Below, in pieces: positions 14,001-45,680 of a DNA stretch of 64,000 bases (its first letter is position 1; each line of letters starts with the position of its first letter). The translations under genes and the position numbers were made by a program. The notes beneath the pieces were generated by a model. That model saw only the letters and a list, made by a program, of their open reading frames with translations, had not been told where the DNA came from and ran no database searches. The DNA is taken from NCBI GenBank assembly GCA_000165345.1, contig CM000430.1, forward strand, positions 416,001 through 480,000. Direction: 5' to 3'.

Positions 14001-15311
14001 CTTTTTATCAAAGTCGTCAGGTGAAGCTTCCTGATCGCATTCAGACCCCTCATACTTTAACTTATCAAGGATTTCATTTAATTCTTGAATTAAAATTTTC
14101 ATTTCTGGGATAAACTCAATTAAGCCTTCAGGTATTAATATTATGCCATACATTTTGCCCATTTTTGAACGCTCTTCCATTAAATCTACAATATTCTTCA
14201 CTATTTCAAATAATGTTATTCCTTCTTGTTCAACTTCTTCTGCAATGAAAACAATATTTGGTCTTGTTTGCAATGCGACTTCCAGAGCCAAATGCGATGC
14301 TGATCTACCCATAACTCTTACGAAGTGATAGACATTTTGTGATGTACAAATGTCTGAGCAAAGATTACCTACGCACTCAGCGTAAGTCCTCGCAGCAGTA
14401 TCAAATCCAAAAGAGACTTCAATAGCAGGGTTTTTTAAATCTCCATCAATAGTTTTTGGGACCCCTACAATACAAAAATTTTTGTTTTTCTTTGCCATGT
14501 AATCCGCGATCAACGCAGCATTTGAATTTGAGCCATCACCTCCAATAACAATTAATCCATGTAATTGAAGCTGCTCGCAAACTTTTTCAACTCTTTCCAA
14601 ATCTTGCTCTCCATTAATTCTCCCTCTACCAGACCAAAGCATATCAAAACCTCCTTGGTTTCTAAATCGATCCATTAATTCATCTGAAATAACCTTATAA
14701 GTTGATTTGAAAAGACCATCTAACCCACCTAAAAATCCGAATAGCTGGCTATCAGGGTGATGATTCTTAATAAAATCATATACACCGCAAATGACATTAT
14801 GTCCGCCAGGTGCAGGACCACCTGATAATACAATTCCAACTCTAAGAGCATGGTCTGAATTCTCCGAGTTCTTTGATTCATCTCGAGTTATTTCAATGCA
14901 TGGTCTCCCAAATGTGTTCGGTAACAATTCTTTGAGTTTATTCTCATCTTTTTGGATCAAGTCAGGAATTTCAATCTCTTTTATTTTTATGCAGTTTGAA
15001 GATAAGGAATATGGCAATGTTGGCACCCATTTTTGTCTTTCTAATTGCACGGGACTAAAGTTTTCAAAGAGATCTGCTGAGTGCAAATGAGGTTTTCCAC
15101 CCATTGACAATTTAAATGAGTCTAACCTAGTTGCAATATTACGTTCTATTGAATCTCTTCTACGAATATGCTTTTGAGACGTTATCGCTTTAGAAATTAA
15201 TGGAATACTACGTTCTTTATCGATATGAGTGTCTTCAAGTATTACAGCCAAACTTCTAAGCCGGCGAATAGCATTTCTTTGGCTTCTGTTCATTTCTCCA
15301 TTCAAAAACAT
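11031..15311 (-). CDS. Phosphofructokinase, long duplicated (beta-alpha fused) PFP-type, 1426 aa; phosphoryl donor (PPi versus ATP) not decidable from sequence
   Basis: The N-terminal half has canonical PFK motifs GGPAPGGHNV, IGGDGSNS, PKTIDGD and MGRSASH. The C-terminal half is homologous but degenerate at these positions (SRQAPGIANV, CGSAFGMTQG, PATASNN, MGRQPSN). The architecture matches the ~1400-aa apicomplexan PFKs. Confidence 0.9.
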   Translation of the reverse strand: MFLNGEMNRSQRNAIRRLRSLAVILEDTHIDKERSIPLISKAITSQKHIRRRDSIERNIATRLDSFKLSMGGKPHLHSADLFENFSPVQLERQKWVPTLPYSLSSNCIKIKEIEIPDLIQKDENKLKELLPNTFGRPCIEITRDESKNSENSDHALRVGIVLSGGPAPGGHNVICGVYDFIKNHHPDSQLFGFLGGLDGLFKSTYKVISDELMDRFRNQGGFDMLWSGRGRINGEQDLERVEKVCEQLQLHGLIVIGGDGSNSNAALIADYMAKKNKNFCIVGVPKTIDGDLKNPAIEVSFGFDTAARTYAECVGNLCSDICTSQNVYHFVRVMGRSASHLALEVALQTRPNIVFIAEEVEQEGITLFEIVKNIVDLMEERSKMGKMYGIILIPEGLIEFIPEMKILIQELNEILDKLKYEGSECDQEASPDDFDKKICSCLSESSAKIWEYLPENIREQLLLDREATGQIQVAKIATERLLILLVEAELHRRHGTSFYYDFEHGQTKETISDQVEISNKSNGSILMPFGFTMMHHYLGYEGRCAMPSNFDSNYCYALGHCAGALVYKGMNGYLAVIRGLEGNPLSWQACGISITRIMEVKKSRQDGQCYAAVTRQLVDLNGPLFKLLKQVRDIWKFQDLYRAPGPLQFEGPCSETIPYIVRTPELQDLLCGEDASVTDTDINIVQPNNGGGKRGVFNRIQGTLSSLQLYRTTYRPPLPLLLTHLKARCKPTTQYNLSDPLIKRQITTCYPHLCNSNHFYCQEAQLDISSEEPNVGLRIGVLLMSRQAPGIANVVWGLYHRLKMVRGRCLGFYGVKGFLQGKHITLTEKDVDLLPNQGGSELIGRTYTECLVSKENLEKARKVCESLHLDGLVLCGSAFGMTQGAILAEYFLQNNCNTKVVGVPATASNNLANDLVEACVGFDSSTKLYASLIGNVLTDAASMPKYWHFIRLMGRQPSNEVLECALQTHPNVVIIAEEYGAADKTLVHIVEDVADVICKRAEFGKNFGTVLIPDALLSHLPDMKILISEINELRRFAEEHSEMKLFMSEMMSLGHSDHPTLSDHTNSQEKSSRVDVADNKSSAANQEHSPTDSFDGSKYSSKMTPWSLALFKSLPRFIRREILSLDVDSAFSAIETEALLVLMIKKELKKRKQDNKYNGNFQPFTHFFGYQGRSAMPSQFDAKLGYALGHFASIVVESGLTGHLCSIRGLCGDVSDWRMTAIPFNCLMKIVPSNDETHPELPSNIPTIPSSEVDLKGKAYRWLKIVQEHWAMQDRFCNPGPIQFDGAAANFYFRTLHEQQSEYYEMLKHVQNYAELVRETCTFGVNESFLKTAFVTLNGLLNLRYRDGSLLSSLPDIGPIILQMKSNSGMLNNPTGQGETIEPIASELSNKAASNLHTSKYISQNNLHMAQSICPGVEEGPWNKTK

Positions 15312-15888: not shown

Positions 15889-18800
15889 ATGTATTTCCAA
15901 CGCCAAGAAGTAATTGGATCGCCACCTATTCTTGCATCAATAAGATCAATTTTTTCTAATGAATCTAAGAAAGACAAATTGGGTCCAACATACCAGCTTT
16001 TTGTTGGAATAGGATATATATTTTATTTAATTATTTTTATGATTGTCATTACTAAAGTAATTCAGCCTAATGAAGAATATTCGTCAATATATAGTATTCA
16101 GAATGTACTAAAATCTGCAAATTGGAACCCTGACTTATCAACACCTAAAAATTCTATGCTATATAATATTCAGACAAATGGAGATATTCAAAATTGGATA
16201 TATTATGTTTTGGGCCCACCACTTTTAAATGGTCATATTGCAGATCAAAACCAAATTATTGGAGCCTCTCTAACAAAATGTGTCGGAGAATATATCAGTA
16301 ATGCAGTAGAAAATCAATATATTCCTTCAGACTATGGTGTTGTCAAGGTTCTCAGCCAAAGTAATTGTAAAAAAACCAAATTAAACTTAGTTTCAAGGAT
16401 TGCTTCTCCATATAAATACATGGAAGCTTTTTTTGATTCTTCTAAGGATTACGTTATTCAAGAAATCGAATCCAATCCTGAATTGCCAGTATTACCAAAG
16501 TTATTTAATAAAACAGATATAATTTCCTATACAGCAGAACTATTATTTTATAATGGAAATATTGACACATACAGCGTTGTATCATTTTCGTTCAATCTTT
16601 CTATCTTCGGTACATTTATCGTTGATGTATTATCTCAAAGCGCTTCGCCTATCAAAAAATATATTGGGTTTCCATGCGATGGAAGTTGTAATATAAATAT
16701 TACTCAGATAACTAAATCTGCGCTTTTTTTTACATATTGTGTTGTTTTTATTCTTCATTTGATATCAGGAATTATACTGCTCATTTCTAGTGCATCAGGG
16801 TCCCCAAGTTATTCATCCAAAGAGTCTGAAAGAAACGGTTTGGGGATTGAATCTTGGTCAAATTACTTTAAAGAAAGGTCGCTTTCTATTGCAATTCGAA
16901 TTTCTCACTTTTCTGTAATTTTATTATGGATTTCATCCGCAGTTTTAGTACAACTACTTCCAAACCAATCCCTAAAAAATATTTTAGAGCAAAGTAACCA
17001 AGCAGCAGAAAAGATCAATTTAAACCAATCATCCGAAATGCCACTATTAAATTCCATTATCTATACAATTAAAATTGCTTCAATTATAAAATTTACTGGA
17101 ACCGTAATTGCATGTATTGCATCACTTTTAATGCTGTTTAGGATCTTTCAGATTTTTTCATCTCTTTTTTCTCAAGTTAACGTTCCGCTAAAGACAATAA
17201 TGTTATTTTTTAGAAAAATTATTGGAATATTTTTTCTTATCAACCTAATTATTTTGACATTGGCACTTGGAATTATTATTTATTTACATATTGACAAGTA
17301 TTCACCAAATATTAAAGGAATTAAAGAGTCTATAAGTACCTCAATTTTTTCTATTATGCTTGCACCAATTTCTATTAGCCTGCAGGAGGAAACTACCGAA
17401 GAGACAATCTATAAAGTTCCAACAGTTATTTTTTTATCAATCGTATTGGGGATTCTAACTTTATACCTCCTATTAATTCCACTATCAACTGCCACCATAA
17501 TGTTTATTTACAATGAAGTTGAAATTCTTCAATCTTTAAAACAAAACACAGATAATATTTACACGATCAAAACGACTCTTAGTGCTTGGATTCAACAAAT
17601 TTTTTTTCTTTCAACATTCTGGCAATCAAAAAAAGTCTGGTCATTTTCGTCTCAATCGAATGACAAGGCCATAAAAATAAATCATGATATACAAAATGAG
17701 ATTGAGGCACAACACCAACAAGAAAGTAACAGTTTTGCAAAAGAAATCATTTTGAACCAAGGGGTAAACAAAACTAATAAAATGGACGAAAAAGGCATAA
17801 ATCAAGTGATACAACAAAAAAAGAAACAGTTTAAAAAATTTTTTGAGTTGCCTCCAAAGCTTGAATATATTCCATACCATCTTTTTTTCTTAATTGTACT
17901 ATTTTCCATAGTTTCTATACTATGGATTATTAATATAGCAAACTACCAGCTTCATACTGAAACAGGCGAAGTTATTTGGAAGATTCTCGATTCGCCTTTT
18001 AGAGCAAGATCATTCTATACATTTGATCCAACTTTGGATTTCTTCCCATACATGTTTAAAGATTGTTCTAAAAAAGATGAAAATCTCAATTTCTTATATG
18101 ACAAAAACCAGTTATCTAAAATTCCAGGAGAACTTCTCTACGGGCTATATCAGTCATACAGGCTCACAAATATTACTTCATTAAGTCACCTAAATTCATG
18201 GATTCAAAAAATTTTTATTCCGTTGATAAAAACAAAAAATACTCAGATTTCAGAAAAAAAGAATTTTTTGATAGATCTTGGCCATCCAACACTCTATTCA
18301 ACAGTTAACCCAATGTTATTATTTAAACAACATTTTAGTCCCGTTAAATGCAATTCTAATCCAATTTCGTCTGGATTATATTTAAGTACAATCTCTAGAT
18401 CAAAAAGCTCATTAAGCATTAAAGACATTTCAAATTTCAATCCATTGTCAGTAAATAATGTCCCAACTTCATTATCTGTTCCAAAGACCCAAATTCAAAA
18501 AATCAGAAATATATTCGCACGTATTCTTAAATTAGTGAATTTTAATCAGGGAATATTCAGTAGAGAGTTAACTACTTCTGCGGAAAAGAGTTCTCATATG
18601 GAGTCAACTCTATCAAGCTCAGGAGTAGATAGAATATTTTTTTTATATGCAGGTAAAGAATCAGAAATTTCCGAACAGTTTAATAAATCTTTACATGGGA
18701 ATGATGAAGGAAACTTATTTTGGGTTATAAGGTCTTATTCTCTTTCTACTGGAAGCGATGTAAATGTCGACTTAATCACTTCATTAGATTCGTTTGCTTC

Positions 18801-21345
18801 AAATGAAGACTTTAACATTCCTTTTGATGGTTTGTTTGATTATAGTATGGATACTCTAGAAATTTACTTCCCGATTATTATTCCAAATCAAAATTCTGTT
18901 TCATTGATAAAGTTAAAATTTGAACTTCTACGTACTGGGAAAATTGAAATTGAATATTCTTTTGATTTTGTGAAACATGAATGGATCAAACAAACTCTTG
19001 ATCAAAATGGGATTTATATTGATTCAAAAAATCAAGAAATTTCAGAAGATGTTGATGGAAATGAAAATGGAAGTGAAAACCAAGTCAAAGACTCGAATTC
19101 AAATTCAGGAATCTGGGTTTTTTCATTTGTTCTGATTGGGATACAGTGTTTTATTTTCCTAATATTCCTTATATTGGTCATTTACAATTTTTATAGAAAA
19201 AGATTATTAAGAAAAAGACTAATGAATCAAATAAATTATAAAATGGATATTTCAGAATCAGAAAGTGAAAGTGAAATACAAAAAAAAAAGAAAATTCGAA
19301 AACTTGGAATCAGAAAAATTGCAAGAAAAATCGGTAGAAAAGAAATAGAAAACGAGCAAACAACAATCAAAAAACAAAAACTAGAAACATTTGGAAATGT
19401 ACACTTAAATGAAAAAAAAAATGTTTTAGAATTTAGGAAAAAAAAGTTAGCACACAAGAAACAGAACAAAGAAATTAAAGAGGAAATCACTGATTCCAAG
19501 CAAATAGTTGAGGAAGAATTATACGATGAAGATATATTAAGTTTGTACAAGCTAAGTAATTTTAACATTTTAATTATTGTAATAATGTTAATTGCATTTT
19601 TCGTATTATTTTTTTCTTCAATCGCATATTATATTTTAATAATATCCACAAAAATTTCGATTAACATTAATTCAATTGATATTGAGGGTGGTTTTAATTC
19701 GATTGCTTCATCACATGGAGATCCATTGCCCTGGGAGATAGAAATATCAAACTTGAATGATATCAATTCGAAACTAAATATGATCGGTTCTAGTTCAGGT
19801 TTTTATAACGACAACGTGTTTTCCTTCAGTAATTTATTTGAAACAATAAATAACATACAAGAAATAAGCGGATACTTTGAGATGTTTGAAATAATCGGAG
19901 TTTTTCTTATTATCACATATTTATCCATTATTTTTATATACTCCAGCTTACTTGTTGATCGTCATCGTCGTGCAAAAATATTAAAGATGAGGCGTTACAT
20001 GGAAAAAACTGGGAAGAAACTAACTGGAAATTCATTCGAATCCCTCTCAGTGTTTACATTCATGGATACAACATCCCAAAGAGGTTTTAGCTGGAATGAT
20101 GCAAATTACGCACTTTTTCCTATTTTTTGTGTTGTTGCTTCAATTATTCTGATTTTTTCTTTGACAGGATATTCGATATTAGGCTATCAGGAGGCAACAT
20201 ATTTTTCATATTACTATTCAGTAATAAGCTCCCTATTAATGATTTTTAATTATAACAGTGTAAAGCAAGTAATGATGACGTCAATTACTCCAGATATATC
20301 AATTAGATTTAAATCAAATATTATTACATTTATTTGGAAGCCATTATATTATTTATTAACGTTTTTTACCTTTAATTTTATTTTAAAGGCATTAATTCCT
20401 GCTTCCATAATTTTTTATATGCGTTCAGTTGCATCTAAGAACTTGCAAATTTCACAGGATACTCTACTTTCAAAGTTAAATAATGTTGCAGTTACAAGAC
20501 CATCAATTCCAGTATTCACAAATGATTGCATCTCATTAAGAATGAAATTTTTTATCAAGGCACTTTATAAAAAATTAGGAAAATTTAAAAAATTTGATAT
20601 GAATTTAATGAAAGGTAACACAATTGAAGAGCAAAATGAAACAGAAGTAAATTTAACGGAAGGGAATCCTGACTGGATCTTTGCAAAATTAATACCGGAG
20701 CTTTTTAATGAAATAATTCATTATAAACTAAATATTGCAGAGCTTGTCAACAAAGACCAGCAGGGAATACAGGAAATAAGAGATTATTTAGGTAATATAT
20801 CACTCCAATTATTGTTAATTCAAGAACATTTAGTGAAGATTGAGTTTTTGAGATGTAAACTTTCAATGATAAGACAAGAATTGATGAAAATTGAAGATGT
20901 TAAAAAAGATATATCAAGAGGAAATAGAGAGTCTCAACACTATATTGATCGACTTTTACAGCGATTAATGAGTATTAATGATGAAATCGAACATTTGGAT
21001 GAAAGTAACAGAGTTTTAGGGCAAGAAAAAGAAACTGTTAAACAAAAAACATCAAGCGTCGCTGCAAACTATACTCTTCAAAAAGAAAAAGAAAAATTCT
21101 CAACTAATTTCTTGTTTGAATACGGTAATTCATATGCCAAAACATTATTTGAAAATTCCAAAATTAACGATATTGTCAGTAGCGATGAATATTCCAACGA
21201 AGATTCAGATGAACGCAAAGATCTTGATGAAACAAATAGAAATAGGGTCTCTGCAAATAATAACACAAAAAAAAGTATAATTAATTACATCGATAAAAGC
21301 GACAAAGACGATAGCAAAGTCAAGAATATTTGGAAAAGAGACTAA
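15889..21345 (+). CDS. Large multi-pass membrane protein, 1818 aa, orphan
   Basis: Uninterrupted 5.4-kb ORF in a 70% AT genome. N-terminal cluster of about 8 hydrophobic helices, a ~500-aa soluble middle, and a second cluster of about 6 helices (ILIIVIMLIAFFVLFF..., IIGVFLIITYLSIIFIY..., ALFPIFCVVASIILIF...). Contains Lys/Glu-rich low complexity (ESESESE, KKKKIRKLGIRK) and a C-terminal coiled coil. Confidence 0.6.
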   Translation: MYFQRQEVIGSPPILASIRSIFSNESKKDKLGPTYQLFVGIGYIFYLIIFMIVITKVIQPNEEYSSIYSIQNVLKSANWNPDLSTPKNSMLYNIQTNGDIQNWIYYVLGPPLLNGHIADQNQIIGASLTKCVGEYISNAVENQYIPSDYGVVKVLSQSNCKKTKLNLVSRIASPYKYMEAFFDSSKDYVIQEIESNPELPVLPKLFNKTDIISYTAELLFYNGNIDTYSVVSFSFNLSIFGTFIVDVLSQSASPIKKYIGFPCDGSCNINITQITKSALFFTYCVVFILHLISGIILLISSASGSPSYSSKESERNGLGIESWSNYFKERSLSIAIRISHFSVILLWISSAVLVQLLPNQSLKNILEQSNQAAEKINLNQSSEMPLLNSIIYTIKIASIIKFTGTVIACIASLLMLFRIFQIFSSLFSQVNVPLKTIMLFFRKIIGIFFLINLIILTLALGIIIYLHIDKYSPNIKGIKESISTSIFSIMLAPISISLQEETTEETIYKVPTVIFLSIVLGILTLYLLLIPLSTATIMFIYNEVEILQSLKQNTDNIYTIKTTLSAWIQQIFFLSTFWQSKKVWSFSSQSNDKAIKINHDIQNEIEAQHQQESNSFAKEIILNQGVNKTNKMDEKGINQVIQQKKKQFKKFFELPPKLEYIPYHLFFLIVLFSIVSILWIINIANYQLHTETGEVIWKILDSPFRARSFYTFDPTLDFFPYMFKDCSKKDENLNFLYDKNQLSKIPGELLYGLYQSYRLTNITSLSHLNSWIQKIFIPLIKTKNTQISEKKNFLIDLGHPTLYSTVNPMLLFKQHFSPVKCNSNPISSGLYLSTISRSKSSLSIKDISNFNPLSVNNVPTSLSVPKTQIQKIRNIFARILKLVNFNQGIFSRELTTSAEKSSHMESTLSSSGVDRIFFLYAGKESEISEQFNKSLHGNDEGNLFWVIRSYSLSTGSDVNVDLITSLDSFASNEDFNIPFDGLFDYSMDTLEIYFPIIIPNQNSVSLIKLKFELLRTGKIEIEYSFDFVKHEWIKQTLDQNGIYIDSKNQEISEDVDGNENGSENQVKDSNSNSGIWVFSFVLIGIQCFIFLIFLILVIYNFYRKRLLRKRLMNQINYKMDISESESESEIQKKKKIRKLGIRKIARKIGRKEIENEQTTIKKQKLETFGNVHLNEKKNVLEFRKKKLAHKKQNKEIKEEITDSKQIVEEELYDEDILSLYKLSNFNILIIVIMLIAFFVLFFSSIAYYILIISTKISININSIDIEGGFNSIASSHGDPLPWEIEISNLNDINSKLNMIGSSSGFYNDNVFSFSNLFETINNIQEISGYFEMFEIIGVFLIITYLSIIFIYSSLLVDRHRRAKILKMRRYMEKTGKKLTGNSFESLSVFTFMDTTSQRGFSWNDANYALFPIFCVVASIILIFSLTGYSILGYQEATYFSYYYSVISSLLMIFNYNSVKQVMMTSITPDISIRFKSNIITFIWKPLYYLLTFFTFNFILKALIPASIIFYMRSVASKNLQISQDTLLSKLNNVAVTRPSIPVFTNDCISLRMKFFIKALYKKLGKFKKFDMNLMKGNTIEEQNETEVNLTEGNPDWIFAKLIPELFNEIIHYKLNIAELVNKDQQGIQEIRDYLGNISLQLLLIQEHLVKIEFLRCKLSMIRQELMKIEDVKKDISRGNRESQHYIDRLLQRLMSINDEIEHLDESNRVLGQEKETVKQKTSSVAANYTLQKEKEKFSTNFLFEYGNSYAKTLFENSKINDIVSSDEYSNEDSDERKDLDETNRNRVSANNNTKKSIINYIDKSDKDDSKVKNIWKRD

Positions 21346-31329: not shown

Positions 31330-32190
31330 TTGAGAATGAACAAAACGATTTCTTCTGACAACCTTAAGGATGCAGTTAGAAAGTGGCATGCAAAGAGAAA
31401 AAAAGACTCAAATAACCAAGCAAATAGTGAAAACACGGGATCAGAACCTGAAGGTATATTTGGTACAAAGAAGCATGATGTTAGACACATTTCTGCATGG
31501 AGCCACAATAATTTTGTTGAATCAAACCAATTATCTCACTTCACAAATGAGCAAAAAAGACCAAGACCGACTGTAATAGAGAACAACATTAAATATATAT
31601 TTGATGGGCCTTTGTCTTTTGATACTATAATGGCATTGAAAAGGAAAAAATCAAATGTGATTTTTAGCAATAATGAAAAAATCCTCAATAACCCCAATAT
31701 TGAACAAAATGATTCTAAAAGCGCAATAAATCAATGCTACACACATCAAACAAATAACTCTCAGGTAATGGACAATTTTAAAGATGAAATTAATATTATA
31801 TACTCAAAGTCTATAAGCGCTGTTCAAAATTTTTTCAAGATCAGTTCAATGTCTGAGGTAATAAATTTACTAGAATACATTTTAAACTTTTTATCATTCA
31901 GCACTCAAGAGTTGATCAGTAGATATAATAAAAAAGCTTATTTTGACAGGCATGAGAAGTCACTAGGCATTTGCATTAATTTTATTTTAAACAAATCTAA
32001 TCTAACGGATGAACAGTTTGACGAAACATCACTGGAATACCTTGCCAAATATCCTAAAGTTTTTGAATCACTTAAGACGTTGACCAAAATCAATGGGTTA
32101 AATGATACGGTACCCAGCGAAATAAGTAATCATATTCAAAAGTTAAACTCGCAGATTGACAAGATTTACAATTTGCTATTAAATAGGTAA
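31330..32190 (+). CDS. Hypothetical protein, 286 aa
   Basis: An 861-nt ORF, an unlikely chance length at this AT content. No motif recognised. Confidence 0.4.
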   Translation: MRMNKTISSDNLKDAVRKWHAKRKKDSNNQANSENTGSEPEGIFGTKKHDVRHISAWSHNNFVESNQLSHFTNEQKRPRPTVIENNIKYIFDGPLSFDTIMALKRKKSNVIFSNNEKILNNPNIEQNDSKSAINQCYTHQTNNSQVMDNFKDEINIIYSKSISAVQNFFKISSMSEVINLLEYILNFLSFSTQELISRYNKKAYFDRHEKSLGICINFILNKSNLTDEQFDETSLEYLAKYPKVFESLKTLTKINGLNDTVPSEISNHIQKLNSQIDKIYNLLLNR

Positions 32191-32226: not shown

Positions 32227-34728
32227 TCACTTAACACCCTTTAAAATATTTGATAATGATTGTATTGAACAGATTATAGTTACAGCTTGTTTTGCCTTGC
32301 ATACGACTATTAGGTAATATATTAATTCTGTATATGAAAAAACTATTCTACACCTTTCAAAGTCTGAGCGTAGGATTCTCTGAGGAGATCGAATTGTTTT
32401 TTTGAGCAAAACTTTTAATTCAAGGGGAAGGAAGCTGTTGTGAACCAATTCTGTCATTTCAAATTTGACAATTCCACATAGTTTAAATACGTAGCTCCAG
32501 ATTGAAGACCTTATGGGATTAGTTGTGGGAACCTTATAAATATCACAAATTGTTGTAATGTTCTTATTGCAGTTATATAAAAGAATGTCTAATTCGTCCT
32601 TAATACACTTTGAGCATTCTCCTGAGTAAATCGATAAAATAGACCATGCAGTTTCAGAATAGAATTCATATTCTAGCATTTGAATTGAAAAACTATTAAG
32701 CATGCTCATGAAGTGTGCATTTTTATTTGTAAGGCATCCATTCTTCAATTCTTTTTTGTTTTTTCTAAACTCAAAGGTCTTTTCATTGTCTTTAAAACTA
32801 AATTTTTTGTTGGATTCCAGCTTATTTAGAACTAAATTAGGGCTTTCTATCCCAATAAAGTTGCTTATATGTTTGAATCTTCCGGATAAAGAATTAAACT
32901 GCAATTTTGGTTTAGAATTCATCACAGAGGAAAGAAGAACTCGATCAGCCTTATGCTTGTCAGAGTTTGATCTGAATAGAGGAATTTCGTCTTTGCTAAT
33001 ACCTAAAATATCGCCTTGGGGCGGAAAGTGATTAAGCAGATCCTTTATTCTAATCAAAGTTGAAACCTCTCCTTCATATTTTTGTTTTGAATGATACTCA
33101 CTCTCAAGATTTTTTTCATTATCATTAAAATTCTTAGTGTTGATTTGAGTGTATTCTTGCAGATATTCATTGGATCTAATTTGACTATCTGAAAATAAGG
33201 GCGTTCTATCTGAATTAGAGTAGTCTTTCCCCTCGTTAATTTGTTTCCTTTTTAACTTTACACTAATTGAGCTATCTAATATCCACTTTAAATCTATAAA
33301 GGAATTTATTTGAGAAAATAATCTAAGGTTGTAAATCTTGTTTAAACTGAAAATTGGAAGCTTTAAAAAACTTAATTTTGGCATTGACATATTTTTGTTT
33401 GTATTTGAAGTTGAATGATTGTTTTTTATACGATGGGTATAATTTTTTTCTTCCTTTTCTACATCTATATATTCTGATAAAATTTCTTTATAGTATGATG
33501 TTGTTAAGCTATCGGGATTTGAATTTTCATGAAAGAAATTCGATGAGATTACCTTTCGATATTCAAAGCAATCTTTCATAGTGGCTGGGTTTGGTTTGTA
33601 GCATGTATTCCCATCGCAATTCGGTCCTTCCAATGGATCTGGGCCAAGCTCCCAATGATCCATAGATGTTATTCCAAATGAACATGACAATTGCGATATT
33701 GATTGTATTGTTGTAACAATACATAAAATATGGCATAGTTCTGTTATTGTCCAAACTTGAGTATCTGAAACTTCTCCTATCAAATGGTTCATAAGTTCAT
33801 TAGAAATGTAGGCAGGTTCAAATGTAATACATTTTAGAAATTCAAAAAGCGCAAAGAATTTAACTGGTAGAGAATCTGAAGGATTTTCCAACCATTCAAT
33901 TGGACCATTGTTAAATATATACATTTGCATTTCTAATTTGATCATGTAATCGTTGTCGTATAAAGATGAACATAAAATCCCAATAAAGTGACGGTAGTGT
34001 AGTGGTAAAGCACCAAAGTTTTGATCTTCCATATTTATTTTGTAAGATTTGAGTAGCGCTTTTGCATATTCTGGAAGTATGTAAACAATTCTAAATACAG
34101 ACGGAATTCTCCCATAAAATGTATTGAAAACATCTTTCCAAAAAGTTTCGTTCTCATCTAAATAAAACTTGTTAGGAAAAAACCCAGGGGTACCAGGAAC
34201 TAAATACTCTGGAGAAATGAATCTTCCACAAGGAAGACAATGTTGATTATTTTCGCTATTTTCTGATGTAAATATTTTGATTGCTTCTCTAATTGAAATG
34301 CTACTTCCTCCCAGGGTGATGTTGAATAATAAATCCGGGTGTATATCTTTGATTTTCGTATAAAATAATGTGCTACTATACTCTGTTAATAACTTCTTTG
34401 GGTCCTCGTCTCTTCTTGAACCAATTGACCACGTTTCATTCAAACTGTTGATAATTGATTGCCAACTATTGGAAATAGACTCTCGAATATCTGAGTAGGG
34501 ATTTAGGCAAGTTGATAAGCGAAGAAGAATGCATAAAGATTGTTCAAATTTCCAGTAACTTGTTTCTCCATTTAACAATATTTGTTTCTGTATTACGTTG
34601 ACTCTATTTTCTATGTATCTTCCAATACTATTTGATTTTAGTCTTCCCCAGTTTGGAATATCCAAAAAAATACTAACAAATTCCTTATAGTTAACTAAAA
34701 GAAGAGATATTGGAAAACCATTATCCAT
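32227..34728 (-). CDS. Sestrin (PA26) family protein, 833 aa with insertions
   Basis: Sesn-A-like block GALPLHYRHFIGILCSS...GPIEWLEN...WTITELCHILCIVTTIQSISQLSCSFGI versus human sestrin [24 protein letters not shown]...WSLxELxxAxVLLxHxHxLxSFVFGCGI. Sesn-C-like block IRSSIWSYVFKLCGIVKFEMTELVHNSFLPLELKVLLKKTIRSP versus [43 protein letters not shown]. Confidence 0.6.
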   Translation of the reverse strand: MDNGFPISLLLVNYKEFVSIFLDIPNWGRLKSNSIGRYIENRVNVIQKQILLNGETSYWKFEQSLCILLRLSTCLNPYSDIRESISNSWQSIINSLNETWSIGSRRDEDPKKLLTEYSSTLFYTKIKDIHPDLLFNITLGGSSISIREAIKIFTSENSENNQHCLPCGRFISPEYLVPGTPGFFPNKFYLDENETFWKDVFNTFYGRIPSVFRIVYILPEYAKALLKSYKINMEDQNFGALPLHYRHFIGILCSSLYDNDYMIKLEMQMYIFNNGPIEWLENPSDSLPVKFFALFEFLKCITFEPAYISNELMNHLIGEVSDTQVWTITELCHILCIVTTIQSISQLSCSFGITSMDHWELGPDPLEGPNCDGNTCYKPNPATMKDCFEYRKVISSNFFHENSNPDSLTTSYYKEILSEYIDVEKEEKNYTHRIKNNHSTSNTNKNMSMPKLSFLKLPIFSLNKIYNLRLFSQINSFIDLKWILDSSISVKLKRKQINEGKDYSNSDRTPLFSDSQIRSNEYLQEYTQINTKNFNDNEKNLESEYHSKQKYEGEVSTLIRIKDLLNHFPPQGDILGISKDEIPLFRSNSDKHKADRVLLSSVMNSKPKLQFNSLSGRFKHISNFIGIESPNLVLNKLESNKKFSFKDNEKTFEFRKNKKELKNGCLTNKNAHFMSMLNSFSIQMLEYEFYSETAWSILSIYSGECSKCIKDELDILLYNCNKNITTICDIYKVPTTNPIRSSIWSYVFKLCGIVKFEMTELVHNSFLPLELKVLLKKTIRSPQRILRSDFERCRIVFSYTELIYYLIVVCKAKQAVTIICSIQSLSNILKGVK

Positions 34729-34890
34729 AGTTTGACACTAGTTTTTGTAGATAACATATTCAATAATTATACGCTTACGAATAAATAGATAGTAGCTTAC
34801 CGCCAATAAGGCAAATTTTTTTGGTACTTAAAAACTGTTAAAACAATATTCATTAAAAGCCTAAACACTTATAATGAAACTATTAAAGAT

Positions 34891-36276
34891 TCAACAGTAA
34901 AATCTAGAATCTAATGTATTACTATGAATATTAGTACAATGAAAATTATGGAATGAGCCAATACCTCCAGTTCCATTTATATTTTTATTAGCTTCTGCAT
35001 TACTCATTAAAATATTTCCCAGTCCTGATTCAACTTGGGAGTTACATAGTGTATTGCCAGATACCAGGTTTTGATGATTTTGCCTTCCTAATTGTCTCTG
35101 AAGGAGCTGCTCATTGCATTTATCAACAATAAAGGATAAAACTACGGATGGTAGGGTCTCTAATCCATTCATGGACCCATCGGAAGCAAATTTTGCACTA
35201 ACTGGCAGTGTTGTCAGGCCACTAAATGATGATGGAAAGTATGAAATTGTAATGTAAGAAAGATTTTGCGAAATTTCTGCGCATGGATGAATATTCCTGT
35301 TTTCTCTAAATGAAATAGACTGTTGTTGTTCACGCCATTGATCTGTTTTAAACGGATAGCCTACTGAAAATCCTGTAACTTGTGCCGAGCTGTTTGCATT
35401 AGAAATTCCGGTATTAAAAGCTCTGTAATGCTCGTTTGTATTGGATATATATTGATTATCGCACTTTAACTGTGTGCTGTTTTGGATATAACCACCATTA
35501 AAAGTATCAATTTTTGGATTGTCTGAACATAGAGAAATAGATGAATCATCTTTTAACTGGTTATTAAAATGGTTAACACTGTGCTCGGAATTAGTATTAT
35601 TTACATTTTTACCTGAAATAATTTTTGACAAGTTTCTCCTTCTTGACCATCTCTGTCTATCTGCAACTCTACAGGGCTCACATGATCTCATATGGGGTGT
35701 TGCATCACGCTTGTGACATCTCCAGCAAAGTTTTGGGTCGTCTCTACGTCTCCTTACCATGTTATTTTCTTTATTAATTGATTTAAATTTGTCTGAATTT
35801 ACCTTTTCTGTCAGATTATTCTCCAAATACGAAAACAAATTAAGGTTTTGGCTGGACTCCACATATTGATTTTCAGTTTTAAATTGGTTTTGATCTTTTA
35901 ATAAACAGTCTATTATTATTGATTTTGGAGTTTCTTCTTGAGAAAATGAGATAGACTCTGAAATCTTTTTATGATTTGTATTACCTCTGTGTATTTCCAG
36001 AAATTTTGGATTGCATTCAGAAGCGTTCACTTCTTCTGAAATATTGTTCGTACTGAAGCTACATTTGGAATTACTATGATTGTAATTTACATTTCCGTTT
36101 ACGTTTACGTTAACATTTACATTTAACTTATTACTGGTATTTTGAATACTTGTATTCAAGATTTTAGGAGAGTTGCTTAAATTGCTTGATGTCTCGTTCC
36201 AATTGCAAGCCTCTTCATCAAAAGATAAGATCATATCAGAGTTGATATATATTTCAGGAATTTGTATCCCTTCCAT
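34891..36276 (-). CDS. Asn-rich low-complexity protein with a basic Cys cluster (possible zinc ribbon/GATA-like), 461 aa
   Basis: Long ORF with an (NV)n repeat and N-rich tracts. Central RRRRDDPKLCWRCHKRDATPHMRSCEPCRVADRQRWSRRRN has a C-x2-C-x11-C-x2-C pattern in a basic context. Confidence 0.4.
   Translation of the reverse strand: MEGIQIPEIYINSDMILSFDEEACNWNETSSNLSNSPKILNTSIQNTSNKLNVNVNVNVNGNVNYNHSNSKCSFSTNNISEEVNASECNPKFLEIHRGNTNHKKISESISFSQEETPKSIIIDCLLKDQNQFKTENQYVESSQNLNLFSYLENNLTEKVNSDKFKSINKENNMVRRRRDDPKLCWRCHKRDATPHMRSCEPCRVADRQRWSRRRNLSKIISGKNVNNTNSEHSVNHFNNQLKDDSSISLCSDNPKIDTFNGGYIQNSTQLKCDNQYISNTNEHYRAFNTGISNANSSAQVTGFSVGYPFKTDQWREQQQSISFRENRNIHPCAEISQNLSYITISYFPSSFSGLTTLPVSAKFASDGSMNGLETLPSVVLSFIVDKCNEQLLQRQLGRQNHQNLVSGNTLCNSQVESGLGNILMSNAEANKNINGTGGIGSFHNFHCTNIHSNTLDSRFYC
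36082..36130. repeat. Imperfect hexanucleotide tandem repeat (TACRTT-like x8) encoding NVNVNVNVNGNVNYN on the minus strand
   Basis: gtaatt tacatt tccgtt tacgtt tacgtt aacatt tacatt taactt, read directly from the sequence. Lies inside the 34891..36276 ORF. Confidence 0.7.
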
Positions 36277-44216: not shown

Positions 44217-45680
44217 ATGGTTAAATTTGGTGCATACATTATAGAGAACAATGATAATGGACCACAATTAATAAGAAGAGAAAAGTCTGGGCCATTGATT
44301 GTCTTAAAGGTTGGAACATCAACTTTAACAAATAGCAGGACAGGCAAACTTTCGGTTTCAAATATCGGTGCGTTGGTGGAAACAGTATGTGATTTAATGG
44401 ATAAGGGATGCAGAGTTGTATTAGTGTCTTCCGGAGCTGTTGGAGCTGGATTGCTTCACATGAATATCAGAGAAAAACCAAATAAGCTTCACCTGAAACA
44501 TGCAATAGCTGCTATTGGCCAGCCACTACTAATGAGAGTTTATGAAGACTTTTTTTCTATGAGAGGCGCTAAGGTTGCTCAATTACTAATGACTAGATCA
44601 GACTTTGTCAACAAAGATAGATTTATTGACTTTAAGAACACACTATTGGATTTGATACATTGGAACGTTGTCCCAATAATAAATGAAAATGACTCTGTAA
44701 CAACTATTGATCTTCATTTCGGCGATAATGATACACTAGCAGCTTACTGTGCAATTGCAATATCAGCAGATTGGTTAATATTGGCTACTGATGTTGATGC
44801 GCTTTTTACAAAAAATCCTCGACTTCATAGAGATGCTGTTCCAATACTAAAAGTAAACAATATTGATTCAATTATTCATATGGAAAATGACGTTTCAGAT
44901 GAAAATTGTGGCACTAATTTTGGAACTGGAGGCATGAGAACTAAGATTTTTGCTGCGAGGATTGCGGCTGCAGCCGGAATTTCAACATTTTTAGTGAATG
45001 GGTCGCACCCCAACAGACTATTGCAACTAGTAGACTCAATAGATTTTAAACTGAATAAGGCTCATAATAACAATGCAATAAGTTCGTATTATAGTTCTAC
45101 TAGTGAAGCCAATGATTTAGAAAATGTTAGTCTGTGTGAAAGCTTGGATATGAATTCTAGTAGCATGGAAAGCCTTGCTGATACAAAAACATGTTTCGAG
45201 CATTCCTACTCCTCTATAGTTGGTAACTTTATCGAGGAAACCCCAGAATCAACACAAGTAGATAATGGCATAATTACATGTGCTTTGGAAGAACTATATC
45301 AAGGAGAATACATTGGTACTATTTTTGCTAGGCAGGCTCTAACTCAATCTATGAAAAATCATAAAAGGTGGATAATGAGCCTACCTATTTCTGGGAAAAT
45401 ATTTCTTGATAAAGGAGCTATCAAATCTGTTACTGCCGACTCAAAATCCCTTTTTTCTGTGGGAATTGTCAACGTGAAGGGTAAATTTGAAACAGGAGAT
45501 GTTGTTTCCATTATTTGCGACGGAGACAATGATGAAAGAGAAATTGCAAGATGTGTTTCCAATTTTAATTCTGAACTACTTAAGAAAATAATGGGTAAAA
45601 AGTCTTGTGAATTAAATGAGTTGTTAGGATTAAATTCTCAAGGAATTGTTTCCGATAGGGCAAATATAATAAAACTATAA
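44217..45680 (+). CDS. Glutamate 5-kinase (gamma-glutamyl kinase, ProB/Pro1-like) with C-terminal PUA domain, 487 aa
   Basis: Amino-acid kinase fold: LIVLKVGTSTLT...VVLVSSGAVGAG, DNDTLAAYCAIAISADWLILATDVDALFTKNP and GTGGMRTKIFAARIAAAAG. C-terminal PUA-like domain GKIFLDKGAIKSVTADSKSLFSVGIVNVKGKFETGDVVSI. An S/N-rich insertion separates the two domains. Confidence 0.7.
   Translation: MVKFGAYIIENNDNGPQLIRREKSGPLIVLKVGTSTLTNSRTGKLSVSNIGALVETVCDLMDKGCRVVLVSSGAVGAGLLHMNIREKPNKLHLKHAIAAIGQPLLMRVYEDFFSMRGAKVAQLLMTRSDFVNKDRFIDFKNTLLDLIHWNVVPIINENDSVTTIDLHFGDNDTLAAYCAIAISADWLILATDVDALFTKNPRLHRDAVPILKVNNIDSIIHMENDVSDENCGTNFGTGGMRTKIFAARIAAAAGISTFLVNGSHPNRLLQLVDSIDFKLNKAHNNNAISSYYSSTSEANDLENVSLCESLDMNSSSMESLADTKTCFEHSYSSIVGNFIEETPESTQVDNGIITCALEELYQGEYIGTIFARQALTQSMKNHKRWIMSLPISGKIFLDKGAIKSVTADSKSLFSVGIVNVKGKFETGDVVSIICDGDNDEREIARCVSNFNSELLKKIMGKKSCELNELLGLNSQGIVSDRANIIKL

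What the first reader, a model, noticed from the sequence alone, without database searches (positions are those of the whole stretch)
32227..34728. Sestrin (PA26) homolog in a parasite lineage thought to lack TORC1 signalling
Both halves of the sestrin fold are recognisable: the Sesn-A block LPLHYRHFIGILCSS...SISQLSCSFGI and the Sesn-C block IRSSIWSYVFKLCGIVKF...LKVLLKKTIRSP. Sestrins are known as metazoan leucine sensors acting through GATOR2/TORC1, and as AhpD-like redox proteins. Cryptosporidium is reported to have lost TOR. A retained sestrin would therefore have to act in a TOR-independent role (redox? GATOR-like?), or mark an ancestral function. The protein carries about 300 aa of lineage-specific insertions.
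Basis: partly seen in the sequence, partly recalled or inferred. Interest (0 to 1): 0.65.

Follow-up and report, generated by a model that had tools for sequence, protein, structure and literature searches.

The report
Divergent sestrin gene in Cryptosporidium
This is a real, intact sestrin gene kept under strong selection in a Cryptosporidium parasite that is reported to lack TOR, but it has lost the residues that sestrins use for their two known jobs, so it probably does something else.

Summary

The gene is single-exon, syntenic across the genus and intact in ten Cryptosporidium species. dN/dS is 0.13 overall and 0.01-0.02 in Sesn-C, so it is not a relic.

- Sestrins are not confined to metazoans. 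Relatives include Eleutheroschizon, Lankesteria, Perkinsus, Amoebophrya, Dictyostelium and early fungi.
- The "ILCSS" cysteine (C253) is not the Cys125 equivalent. Cys125 aligns with an invariant Asn259.

All ten Cryptosporidium proteins also lack the acidic GATOR2/WDR24-binding residues: DDYDY is KFEMTE, D364 is Lys and E345 is Ser. His168 and His454 are lost too. The nearest apicomplexan relative keeps most of these (Cys125, DDY-Y, His168, His454; not D364). Retained are WTITEL (the WSLAEL motif) and the ligand-coordinating Thr386/Arg390/Glu451.

The best reading is a non-catalytic, GATOR2-independent sestrin, possibly still ligand-binding. Public databases already label the domain. I found no paper that discusses it.

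The parts
32227..34728 (-). Complete single-exon CDS of the Cryptosporidium sestrin ortholog (833 aa plus stop codon at 32227-32229)
   Evidence: ORF listing. PA26 hit at E=1.1e-28. Full-length orthologs of 809-855 aa in nine other Cryptosporidium species, aligned from Met1. Called gene in an NCBI assembly. dN/dS 0.13.
34249..34728 (-). Genus-specific N-terminal helical domain (aa 1-160)
34207..34233 (-). Conserved pre-Sesn-A motif PCGRFISPE (aa 166-174), equivalent to SESN2 44-PSAFIPVE-51
   Evidence: Invariant P166, C167, G168, R169, F170, P173, E174 in the genus. Aligns with the P-S-x-F motif present in most other sestrins.
33658..34158 (-). Sesn-A lobe (aa 191-357), AhpD-like all-helical domain
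33952..33954 (-). Asn259 codon, the position equivalent to the peroxidatic Cys125 of SESN2
   Evidence: Two independent alignments agree. N is invariant in 10 of 10 Cryptosporidium. Cys is present in 107 of 122 other sestrins, including the nearest relative P0012. Coordinates checked.
33970..33972 (-). Cys253 codon (the Cys of 'ILCSS'), which is not the Cys125 equivalent
   Evidence: Aligns with SESN2 Ala119. It is Ser in C. ryanae, C. xiaoi, C. serpentis and C. muris.
33736..33753 (-). WTITEL (aa 326-331), equivalent to the WSLAEL motif of SESN2 (W189, S190, E193)
   Evidence: W326, T327 and E330 are invariant. W is present in 117 of 122 and E in 114 of 122 other sestrins; S or T at position 190 is the common state. 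Motif definition from PMC11429811.
32698..33657 (-). Expanded linker (aa 358-677), with two fast-evolving disordered inserts (about aa 426-555 and 632-677) and conserved islands (aa 358-425 and 556-631)
   Evidence: pLDDT below 50 for aa 358-554 and 632-687. Insert dN/dS 0.17-0.35 against 0.06-0.11 for the conserved islands. The island at aa 556-631 (…DRVLLSSVMNSKP…) is shared with the Eleutheroschizon protein. L417 aligns with SESN2 L261.
32230..32697 (-). Sesn-C lobe (aa 678-833), the most constrained part of the protein
   Evidence: phmmer alignment to SESN2 382-476. pLDDT about 80-96 outside the lid. dN/dS 0.011-0.020 with 96-98% amino-acid identity at dS 0.7-1.1.
32506..32532 (-). VPTTNPIRS (aa 733-741), containing T736 and R740, equivalent to the ligand-contacting T386 and R390 of SESN2
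   Evidence: Invariant block in the genus. T is present in 114 of 122 and R in 118 of 122 other sestrins.
32449..32466 (-). KFEMTE (aa 755-760), which replaces Y405 plus the DDYDY GATOR2-binding hinge (SESN2 405-410)
   Evidence: Gap-free alignment anchored by G402=G752 and N414=N764. D406 becomes F or S, Y408 becomes M or A, Y410 becomes E; only position 407 stays acidic (E or D). Other sestrins have D406 in 107, D407 in 108 and Y410 in 118 of 122.
32317..32340 (-). FSYTELIY (aa 797-804), equivalent to FRHSEKVH. E801 (=E451) is kept; K452 becomes L and H454 becomes Y
   Evidence: E is present in 109 of 122, K or R in 97 of 122 and H454 in 109 of 122 other sestrins. The Cryptosporidium states are invariant.
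32599..32601 (-). Lys710 codon, a charge reversal at the position of SESN2 Asp364 (contacts WDR24 Arg228)
   Evidence: K in 10 of 10 Cryptosporidium; D or E in 99 of 122 other sestrins. Interface residue taken from PMC12507694.

Best explanation
The gene encodes the Cryptosporidium ortholog of sestrin. It was inherited vertically from the alveolate/apicomplexan ancestor and is kept by strong purifying selection. On the branch leading to the genus it lost the residues behind both characterised sestrin activities.

Lost:
- The peroxidatic Cys125 is Asn.
- The acidic surface that docks on the WDR24 subunit of GATOR2 is gone: DDYDY is KFEMTE, D364 is K and E345 is S.
- His168 and His454 are replaced.

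Gained: a structured N-terminal helical domain of about 160 aa and about 200 aa of disordered linker.

Kept, almost invariant:
- the two-lobed fold;
- the WSLAEL-type motif (WTITEL);
- the three Sesn-C residues that hold the amino and carboxyl groups of the bound amino acid in human Sestrin2 (T736, R740, E801).

I therefore think it most likely works as a non-catalytic regulator or adaptor that is independent of GATOR2 and TOR. It probably still binds a small amino-acid-like ligand in Sesn-C and passes that state to a lineage-specific partner.

Shown here: family membership, fold, selection, synteny, and the pattern of lost and retained residues. Inferred: loss of peroxidase activity and of GATOR2 binding, ligand binding, and the nature of the partner.
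For: - Functional gene. Intact orthologs in nine further species down to 42% identity. Identical gene order (zuotin, Rer1, unknown, sestrin, unknown, RPN7, L37e, DHHC) in C. ubiquitum and C. muris. dN/dS 0.13 overall, 0.05 in Sesn-A and 0.01-0.02 in Sesn-C.
- Derived motif loss. In a 133-sequence alignment with verified human SESN2, all ten Cryptosporidium proteins keep only 8 of 16 near-universal positions, while 108 of 123 other sequences keep 13 or more.
- Timing of the loss. The nearest relative, from the Eleutheroschizon duboscqi transcriptome, keeps 15 of the 16 panel positions, including C125, H168, T374, DDY-Y and H454; D364 is Ala there. Most of the losses are therefore specific to Cryptosporidium.
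- Functional meaning of the residues. C125, D406/D407, S190, E451, R390 and T386 are described in PMC11429811. The WDR24 contacts E345, Y349, D364, D406 and D407 are described in PMC12507694.
- TOR absence. PMC3236823 and PMC12467227.
Against: - No experiment or structure exists for this protein. Loss of activity is read from residue identity only.
- WTITEL (the S190 motif, implicated in GATOR2 binding) and one acidic residue at position 407 remain, so a co-evolved GATOR2-like interface is not excluded.
- I could not search the Cryptosporidium proteome for WDR24, MIOS, WDR59, SEH1, TOR or Raptor with these tools.
- The lid region (aa 720-736) aligns poorly and is modelled at low confidence, and T374, Y375, T377, W444 and H86 are not conserved. 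Ligand binding is therefore uncertain.
- Retention of T386/R390/E451 is shared by nearly all sestrins and may reflect structural roles.
- The Eleutheroschizon sequence comes from a transcriptome of a host-associated parasite. Its shared Cryptosporidium-like motifs argue that it is apicomplexan, but contamination cannot be formally excluded.
Confidence: 0.55

Rival explanations
1. It is still a canonical nutrient sensor. It binds a residual GATOR2/SEACAT-like assembly (SEH1, SEC13 and a WDR24-like protein) through a co-evolved interface, and the output has been rewired away from TORC1.
For: W326, T327 and E330 of the WSLAEL-type motif and an acidic residue at position 407 are invariant. The hydrophobic interface positions (L191, L351, I352, L355, L472) remain hydrophobic. 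The review PMC11429811 argues that GATOR2-binding motifs are the oldest conserved feature of sestrins.
Against: D406 is F or S, D364 is K (a charge reversal), E345 is S, Q340 is L, S or Q, and Y408 and Y410 are lost. D406 and D407 are essential for binding in human cells (PMC12507694). TOR-complex subunits were not detected in C. parvum. Rag and GATOR1 are reported lost in P. falciparum, another TOR-less apicomplexan. No paper reports GATOR2 in Cryptosporidium.
Confidence: 0.15
2. It acts through AMPK/SNF1, as reported for metazoan sestrins, and serves as a stress-responsive scaffold for the AMPK heterotrimer, which Cryptosporidium retains.
For: AMPK gamma copies are reported in three Cryptosporidium species in a 2026 preprint (10.64898/2026.09.26.754375). 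From general knowledge, sestrin-AMPK links are described in animals (Budanov and Karin 2008). The new N-terminal domain and the conserved linker islands could provide a binding surface.
Against: No sestrin residues for AMPK binding are defined, so nothing could be tested here. This is not mutually exclusive with the best explanation.
Confidence: 0.15
3. It is an AhpD-like redox enzyme that uses a different nucleophile.
Against: The peroxidatic Cys125 is Asn in all ten species, while 107 of 122 other sestrins keep Cys. C253 is not conserved. C336 aligns with the buried V199. His132 is Glu.
Confidence: 0.07
4. It is a decaying leftover of the lost TOR pathway with no remaining function, or an assembly contaminant or horizontal acquisition.
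For: Half of the near-universal sestrin positions are substituted, and the protein carries long low-complexity inserts.
Against: Intact ORFs in ten species. dN/dS of 0.01-0.05 in the two lobes. Conserved synteny on chromosome-scale contigs of four species. GC content of 31%, like its neighbours. Nearest relatives are apicomplexans.
Confidence: 0.03

Closest known systems
Human Sestrin2 (SESN2; PDB 5DJ4, 5CUF, 5T0N; in complex with GATOR2 in 9LVJ)
   Different: - C125 is N, H132 is E, H168 is F, H86 is L, T374/Y375/T377 are C/N/N, W444 is R, DDYDY is FEMTE, D364 is K, E345 is S, R338 is Q, K452 is L and H454 is Y.
- A structured N-terminal domain of about 160 aa replaces 65 disordered residues.
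- The linker is about 200 aa longer.
- The organism is reported to lack TOR.
Sestrin from the Eleutheroschizon duboscqi transcriptome (P0012, TSA GHVT01097058), a protococcidian apicomplexan
   Same: Best non-Cryptosporidium hit, E=1.6e-39, and nearest in distance. Shares lineage-typical motifs (FYGRIP, PWTITELC, VPTT.PIR, D..L.SVM..(K/R)P), a long linker and an N-terminal extension.
   Different: Keeps the canonical C125, H168 (LAHRPW), T374, DDYHY and H454, scoring 15 of 16 panel positions against 8 of 16. The Cryptosporidium N-terminal domain is not detectably shared.
Non-metazoan sestrins (Dictyostelium, Perkinsus, Spongospora, Thecamoeba, Glomeromycota/Blastocladiomycota fungi; T. brucei and Naegleria in PMC11429811)
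   Same: They show that sestrin is ancient and widespread, so its presence in an alveolate is expected from vertical descent.
   Different: Nearly all keep C125 and the DDYxY hinge, and they live in organisms that have TORC1 (Perkinsus retains TORC1 and TORC2).
Amoebophrya sp. A25 sestrin (P0051), a parasitic dinoflagellate reported to have lost TORC1 and TORC2
   Same: A second case of a sestrin kept in a lineage reported to lack TOR complexes.
   Different: It keeps C125, H168 and the DDF-Y hinge, scoring 13 of 16. Motif loss is therefore not an automatic consequence of TOR loss.
Bacterial AhpD / carboxymuconolactone decarboxylase (CMD) family
   Different: Those are single-domain oligomeric enzymes with catalytic Cys residues. 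Here two fused lobes have no Cys at the catalytic position.

Membership tests
Sestrin homology family (Pfam PA26, PF04636) | Significant match to the PA26 profile above the curated gathering score, covering both lobes | tested here: met
   E=1.1e-28, 100.9 bits against 29.4, in two stretches. [quoted passage not shown] All nine orthologs carry PF04636.
Sestrin homology family (Pfam PA26, PF04636) | Pseudo-symmetric two-lobed all-alpha fold (Sesn-A, linker, Sesn-C) that superposes on solved Sestrin2 | tested here: met
   [not shown]
Sestrin homology family (Pfam PA26, PF04636) | Core motifs conserved across eukaryotic sestrins: WSLAEL (W189, E193) and LAHRPW (H168) | tested here: inconclusive
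   WTITEL keeps W, T and E (met). LAHRPW is ITFEPA, keeping only the Pro; H168 is F, while H is present in 105 of 122 other sestrins.
Sestrin as AhpD-like peroxidase | Peroxidatic Cys125 in the MAARxCxYL motif, with Y127 (and H132 in metazoans) | tested here: not met
   C125 is N259 in 10 of 10 species, Y127 is kept as Y261, and H132 is E266. The 'ILCSS' Cys253 aligns with A119 and is not conserved.
Sestrin as GATOR2-binding TORC1 inhibitor | Acidic DDYDY hinge (D406, D407) and the acidic alphaC1/C2 surface (E345, D364) that engage WDR24 R46, R121 and R228 | tested here: not met
   D406 is F or S, D407 is E or D, Y408 is M or A, Y410 is E, D364 is K and E345 is S. Residue roles are taken from PMC12507694 and PMC11429811.
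Sestrin as GATOR2-binding TORC1 inhibitor | Physical binding to GATOR2, and presence of GATOR2, GATOR1, Rag and TORC1 in the same organism | not testable with these tools
   No tool searches the Cryptosporidium proteome with foreign queries. The literature reports no TOR-complex subunits in C. parvum and no TORC1 or TORC2 in apicomplexans. No paper was found on GATOR2 in Cryptosporidium.
Sestrin as leucine sensor | Leucine-pocket residues: the T374/Y375/T377 lid, T386, L389, R390, W444, F447, E451 and the H86 latch | tested here: inconclusive
   Kept: T386 (T736), R390 (R740), E451 (E801), F447 (F797), and L389 as I739. Changed: T374 is C, Y375 is N/D/S/G, T377 is variable, W444 is R and H86 is L. 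The lid is 4 residues longer and modelled with pLDDT below 50. W444 and TYNT are largely metazoan features anyway.
AhpD/CMD superfamily | AhpD-like helical fold with a catalytic Cys (CxxC) motif | tested here: inconclusive
   [not shown]

The most novel reading that the evidence does not exclude
Cryptosporidium sestrin is a working metabolite (amino-acid-like) sensor that has been uncoupled from GATOR2 and TORC1. It has been rewired, through its new N-terminal domain and conserved linker islands, to a different output such as AMPK/SNF1, autophagy-like machinery or a trafficking machine. That would make it the first nutrient sensor described in a TOR-less eukaryote and a window on a TOR-independent function of sestrins.
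Probability: 0.2. Interest if true: 0.75.

Novelty: new variant of a known kind. Interest (0 to 1): 0.45.

Why it matters
Sestrins are studied almost entirely as GATOR2/TORC1 regulators and as antioxidant proteins. Here a sestrin is under very strong constraint (Sesn-C dN/dS about 0.01-0.02) in an organism reported to lack TOR. It has also lost the residues for both textbook activities.

This is a natural separation-of-function allele. Whatever keeps it under selection is a third activity, independent of TOR and of the catalytic cysteine. C. parvum is genetically tractable (from my own knowledge), so tagging, knockout and interaction proteomics could find that activity directly.

The gene also matters for parasite biology. 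How Cryptosporidium, an amino-acid auxotroph, senses nutrients without TOR is not known.

The significance is limited in three ways. Public databases already label the domain. Regulators that outlive a lost pathway are known from other cases. No function has been shown here.

Tried and rejected
- All three word-index homolog searches returned only the nine Cryptosporidium orthologs. This included two searches with alignments, one of them made of 48 diverse sestrins.
- The first AlphaFold run, with only the ten Cryptosporidium sequences, was poor (pLDDT 46.9) and I did not use it. The second run, with the 48-sequence alignment, worked.
- The afdb50 fold library, which could have listed other apicomplexan sestrin-like models by organism, was not available.
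- Searches for literature on sestrin in Cryptosporidium or other apicomplexans, and on GATOR2 in Cryptosporidium or Apicomplexa, found nothing relevant. Supplement searches of the sestrin review and the Sec13 paper were empty.
- I could not establish whether Toxoplasma, Plasmodium or Eimeria have sestrins. None of the 30 hits I was able to name came from them, but 120 of the 150 listed hits remain unnamed.
- An HMM of the N-terminal domain found only one weak hit (P0096, E=2e-4 in a database of about 165 sequences). I do not treat this as homology.
- The pseudogene and contaminant readings are rejected on dN/dS and synteny.
- I could not inspect pocket geometry or electrostatics, because the model coordinates are not exposed to the scripting tool.
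Full report
**Observation**

The window is AT-rich (about 31% GC). It carries closely packed, mostly intron-free eukaryotic housekeeping genes: Dis3, PPi-type PFK, EMC1, RPN7, a DHHC palmitoyltransferase, zuotin and a glucan-water-dikinase-like protein.

At exactly 32227-34728 on the minus strand there is an 833-codon ORF with an ATG start. Its product is identical to a called gene in NCBI assembly GCA_031892065.1 and 98% identical to a C. hominis protein. The window is therefore Cryptosporidium of the C. parvum type.

**Is it a sestrin?**

Yes, on both sequence and predicted structure.

- Pfam PA26 (PF04636) matches at E=1.1e-28, 100.9 bits against a gathering score of 29.4, in two stretches.
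- phmmer against PDB sequences finds only human Sestrin-2 (E about 1e-9). It aligns aa 206-365 with the Sesn-A lobe (SESN2 74-228) and aa 732-826 with the Sesn-C lobe (382-476).
- A first AlphaFold2 run with only the ten Cryptosporidium sequences was poor (pLDDT 46.9).
- A second run with a 48-sequence alignment of diverse sestrins and no templates gave pTM 0.73, with 275 residues at pLDDT 90 or above.
- Foldseek against the PDB returns human Sestrin2 chains as the top twelve hits, with TM 0.71-0.76 normalised to the target.

**Anatomy**

- aa 166-174: PCGRFISPE, the counterpart of the conserved PSAFIPVE motif of SESN2.
- aa 191-357: Sesn-A.
- aa 358-677: an expanded linker. It holds two disordered, fast-evolving inserts (about aa 426-555 and 632-677) and conserved islands. 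One island (aa 556-631) is shared with the Eleutheroschizon protein.
- aa 678-833: Sesn-C.

**Is it a live gene?**

- Nine other Cryptosporidium species, down to C. muris and C. serpentis at 41-42% identity, have full-length orthologs of 809-855 aa that align from Met1.
- Gene order is the same in the window, in C. ubiquitum and in C. muris: zuotin, Rer1, unknown, sestrin, unknown, RPN7, L37e, DHHC.
- Nei-Gojobori dN/dS against the chipmunk-genotype and C. ubiquitum genes is 0.13 overall. By region it is 0.05 in Sesn-A, 0.011-0.020 in Sesn-C, 0.14-0.15 in the N-terminal domain and 0.17-0.35 in the inserts.
- This rules out a decaying relic, a contaminant or a recent transfer.

**Where does it sit among sestrins?**

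An exhaustive profile search of 1.84 billion representative proteins found 344 relatives at E of 0.001 or better. The hits I could name fall into these groups:

- Apicomplexa: Eleutheroschizon duboscqi (the best hit, E=1.6e-39; the TSA prefix GHVT was identified through PMC10304595) and the gregarine Lankesteria metandrocarpae.
- Other alveolates: Perkinsus chesapeaki and Amoebophrya sp.
- Other protists: Dictyostelium, Thecamoeba, Spongospora and a red alga.
- Fungi: Glomeromycota, Blastocladiomycota, Mortierellomycota and Saitoella.
- Insects.

A 2024 review had already aligned 213 non-metazoan sestrins (PMC11429811). The premise that sestrins are metazoan proteins is therefore outdated. The Cryptosporidium gene is best explained by vertical descent.

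**Functional residues**

I aligned 133 sequences with L-INS-i. The set included human SESN2, whose remembered sequence I confirmed to be identical to 5dj4_A. The table uses SESN2 numbering.

| SESN2 position | Role or motif | Cryptosporidium (all ten species) | Other 122 sestrins |
|---|---|---|---|
| C125 | peroxidatic Cys | N259 | Cys in 107 |
| H168 | LAHRPW | F303 | His in 105 |
| T374 | pocket lid | C720 | Thr in 107 |
| D406 | DDYDY hinge | F or S | Asp in 107 |
| Y408 | DDYDY hinge | M or A | Tyr or Phe in 114 |
| Y410 | DDYDY hinge | E | Tyr in 118 |
| K452 | HSEKVH | L | Lys or Arg in 97 |
| H454 | HSEKVH | Y | His in 109 |
| D364 | WDR24 contact | K710 | Asp or Glu in 99 |
| E345 | WDR24 contact | S | not near-universal: Glu or Asp in 44, Lys in 27 |
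| R338 | repositioned by Leu binding | Q | Arg in 60, His in 21 |

- Retained and invariant are Y127, W189/T190/E193 (WTITEL), L261, T386, R390, W394, F447 and E451. Position 407 stays acidic (E or D).
- On a 16-position panel, Cryptosporidium scores 8. Of the 123 other sequences, 108 score 13 or more. The only others at 8 are three proteins that matched the Cryptosporidium profile only in the Sesn-A region.
- The Eleutheroschizon protein scores 15 of 16, so most of the changes arose on the branch leading to Cryptosporidium.
It is not the Cys125 equivalent.

**What the changes mean**

- Per the literature, C125 is the site of the intrinsic antioxidant activity.
- D406 and D407 are essential for GATOR2 binding. 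E345, Y349 and D364 contact WDR24 R228 in the 2025 cryo-EM structure, where binding is described as driven mainly by an acidic Sestrin2 surface meeting a basic WDR24 surface (PMC12507694).
- In Cryptosporidium, three of those acidic positions are neutral or basic. The hinge segment is predicted to be helical rather than a loop (model-level observation).
- I infer that both the peroxidase chemistry and canonical GATOR2 docking are gone.
- This fits reports that C. parvum has no detectable TOR-complex subunits (PMC3236823) and that apicomplexans lack TORC1 and TORC2 (PMC12467227).
- I could not verify the absence of TOR or GATOR2 myself, because no available tool searches the Cryptosporidium proteome with foreign queries.

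**Proposed mechanism**

- The most constrained region is Sesn-C. It includes the invariant VPTTNPIRS and FSYTELIY blocks, which carry the equivalents of T386, R390 and E451. In human Sestrin2 these hold the carboxyl and amino groups of bound leucine.
- The lid and the hydrophobic floor differ: T374 is C, W444 is R and H86 is L. If a ligand is bound, its identity is open.
- I commit to a non-catalytic, GATOR2- and TOR-independent regulator or adaptor that probably still binds a small amino-acid-like ligand. Its output would run through a lineage-specific partner, possibly docked on the WTITEL face, the new N-terminal domain or the conserved linker islands.
- Confidence is about 0.55 for the whole statement. 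It is high for family membership, selection and motif loss, and low for ligand binding and the partner.
- The rivals are a co-evolved GATOR2-like interaction (0.15), an AMPK-linked role (0.15; AMPK gamma is reported in Cryptosporidium), a redox enzyme with another nucleophile (0.07) and a non-functional relic or artefact (0.03).

**Novelty**

- The domain assignment is already in public databases. PF04636 is precomputed on all orthologs, and NCBI names the C. canis and C. felis proteins as sestrin-like.
- I found no paper that discusses a sestrin in Cryptosporidium or any apicomplexan.
- What appears new is the combination found here: strong constraint, loss of both hallmark motif sets, and a genus-specific N-terminal domain, in a lineage reported to lack TOR.
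- Amoebophrya, also reported to lack TOR complexes, keeps a near-canonical sestrin. Retention of a sestrin without TOR is therefore not unique, and motif loss is not an automatic consequence of TOR loss.
- I rate it a new variant of a known kind, of moderate interest (0.45).

Noticed in passing
window 34891-36276 (-): A 461-aa ORF immediately upstream of the sestrin gene has no Pfam match. It is syntenic in C. ubiquitum (460 aa) and C. muris (441 aa). It contains a Cys/His-rich basic stretch (CWRCHKRDATPHMRSCEPCRVADRQRWSRRR) that looks like a small zinc-binding or DNA-binding motif.
   Followed up: no
window 31330-32190 (+): A 286-aa ORF with no Pfam match is convergent with the sestrin gene, with only 36 nt between the two stop codons. 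The syntenic counterpart is 289 aa in C. ubiquitum but 488 aa in C. muris.
   Followed up: no
window 15889-21345 (+): An 1818-aa ORF has no Pfam family at E of 0.001 or better. It is the largest unannotatable gene in the window.
   Followed up: no
window 44217-45680 (+): This gene has an amino-acid-kinase domain plus a PUA domain, the glutamate-5-kinase architecture. That is notable because, from my own knowledge, the parasite is regarded as lacking most amino-acid biosynthesis.
   Followed up: no
P0051 (Amoebophrya sp. A25, 749 aa): [quoted passage not shown] This is a second 'sestrin without TOR' case, but without the motif loss seen in Cryptosporidium.
   Followed up: partly
P0056 (Lankesteria metandrocarpae, 812 aa): A gregarine sestrin has independently lost Cys125 (Ala) and Tyr127 (Gly) but keeps D406, Y408, Y410 and H454. 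The redox motif and the GATOR2 motif can therefore be lost separately within Apicomplexa.
   Followed up: partly
[not shown]
   Followed up: partly
window 34800-34806 (- strand), 71 nt upstream of the sestrin ATG: A G+C-rich TTGGCGG element sits in an otherwise very AT-rich 160-nt intergenic region. It might be a promoter motif. I did not test it for enrichment.
   Followed up: no
window 11031-15311 (-) and 53371-58329 (-): A double-length phosphofructokinase (1426 aa, two PFK stretches) and a 1652-aa protein like alpha-glucan water dikinase lie in the window. Both are carbohydrate-metabolism genes and are unrelated to the finding.
   Followed up: no
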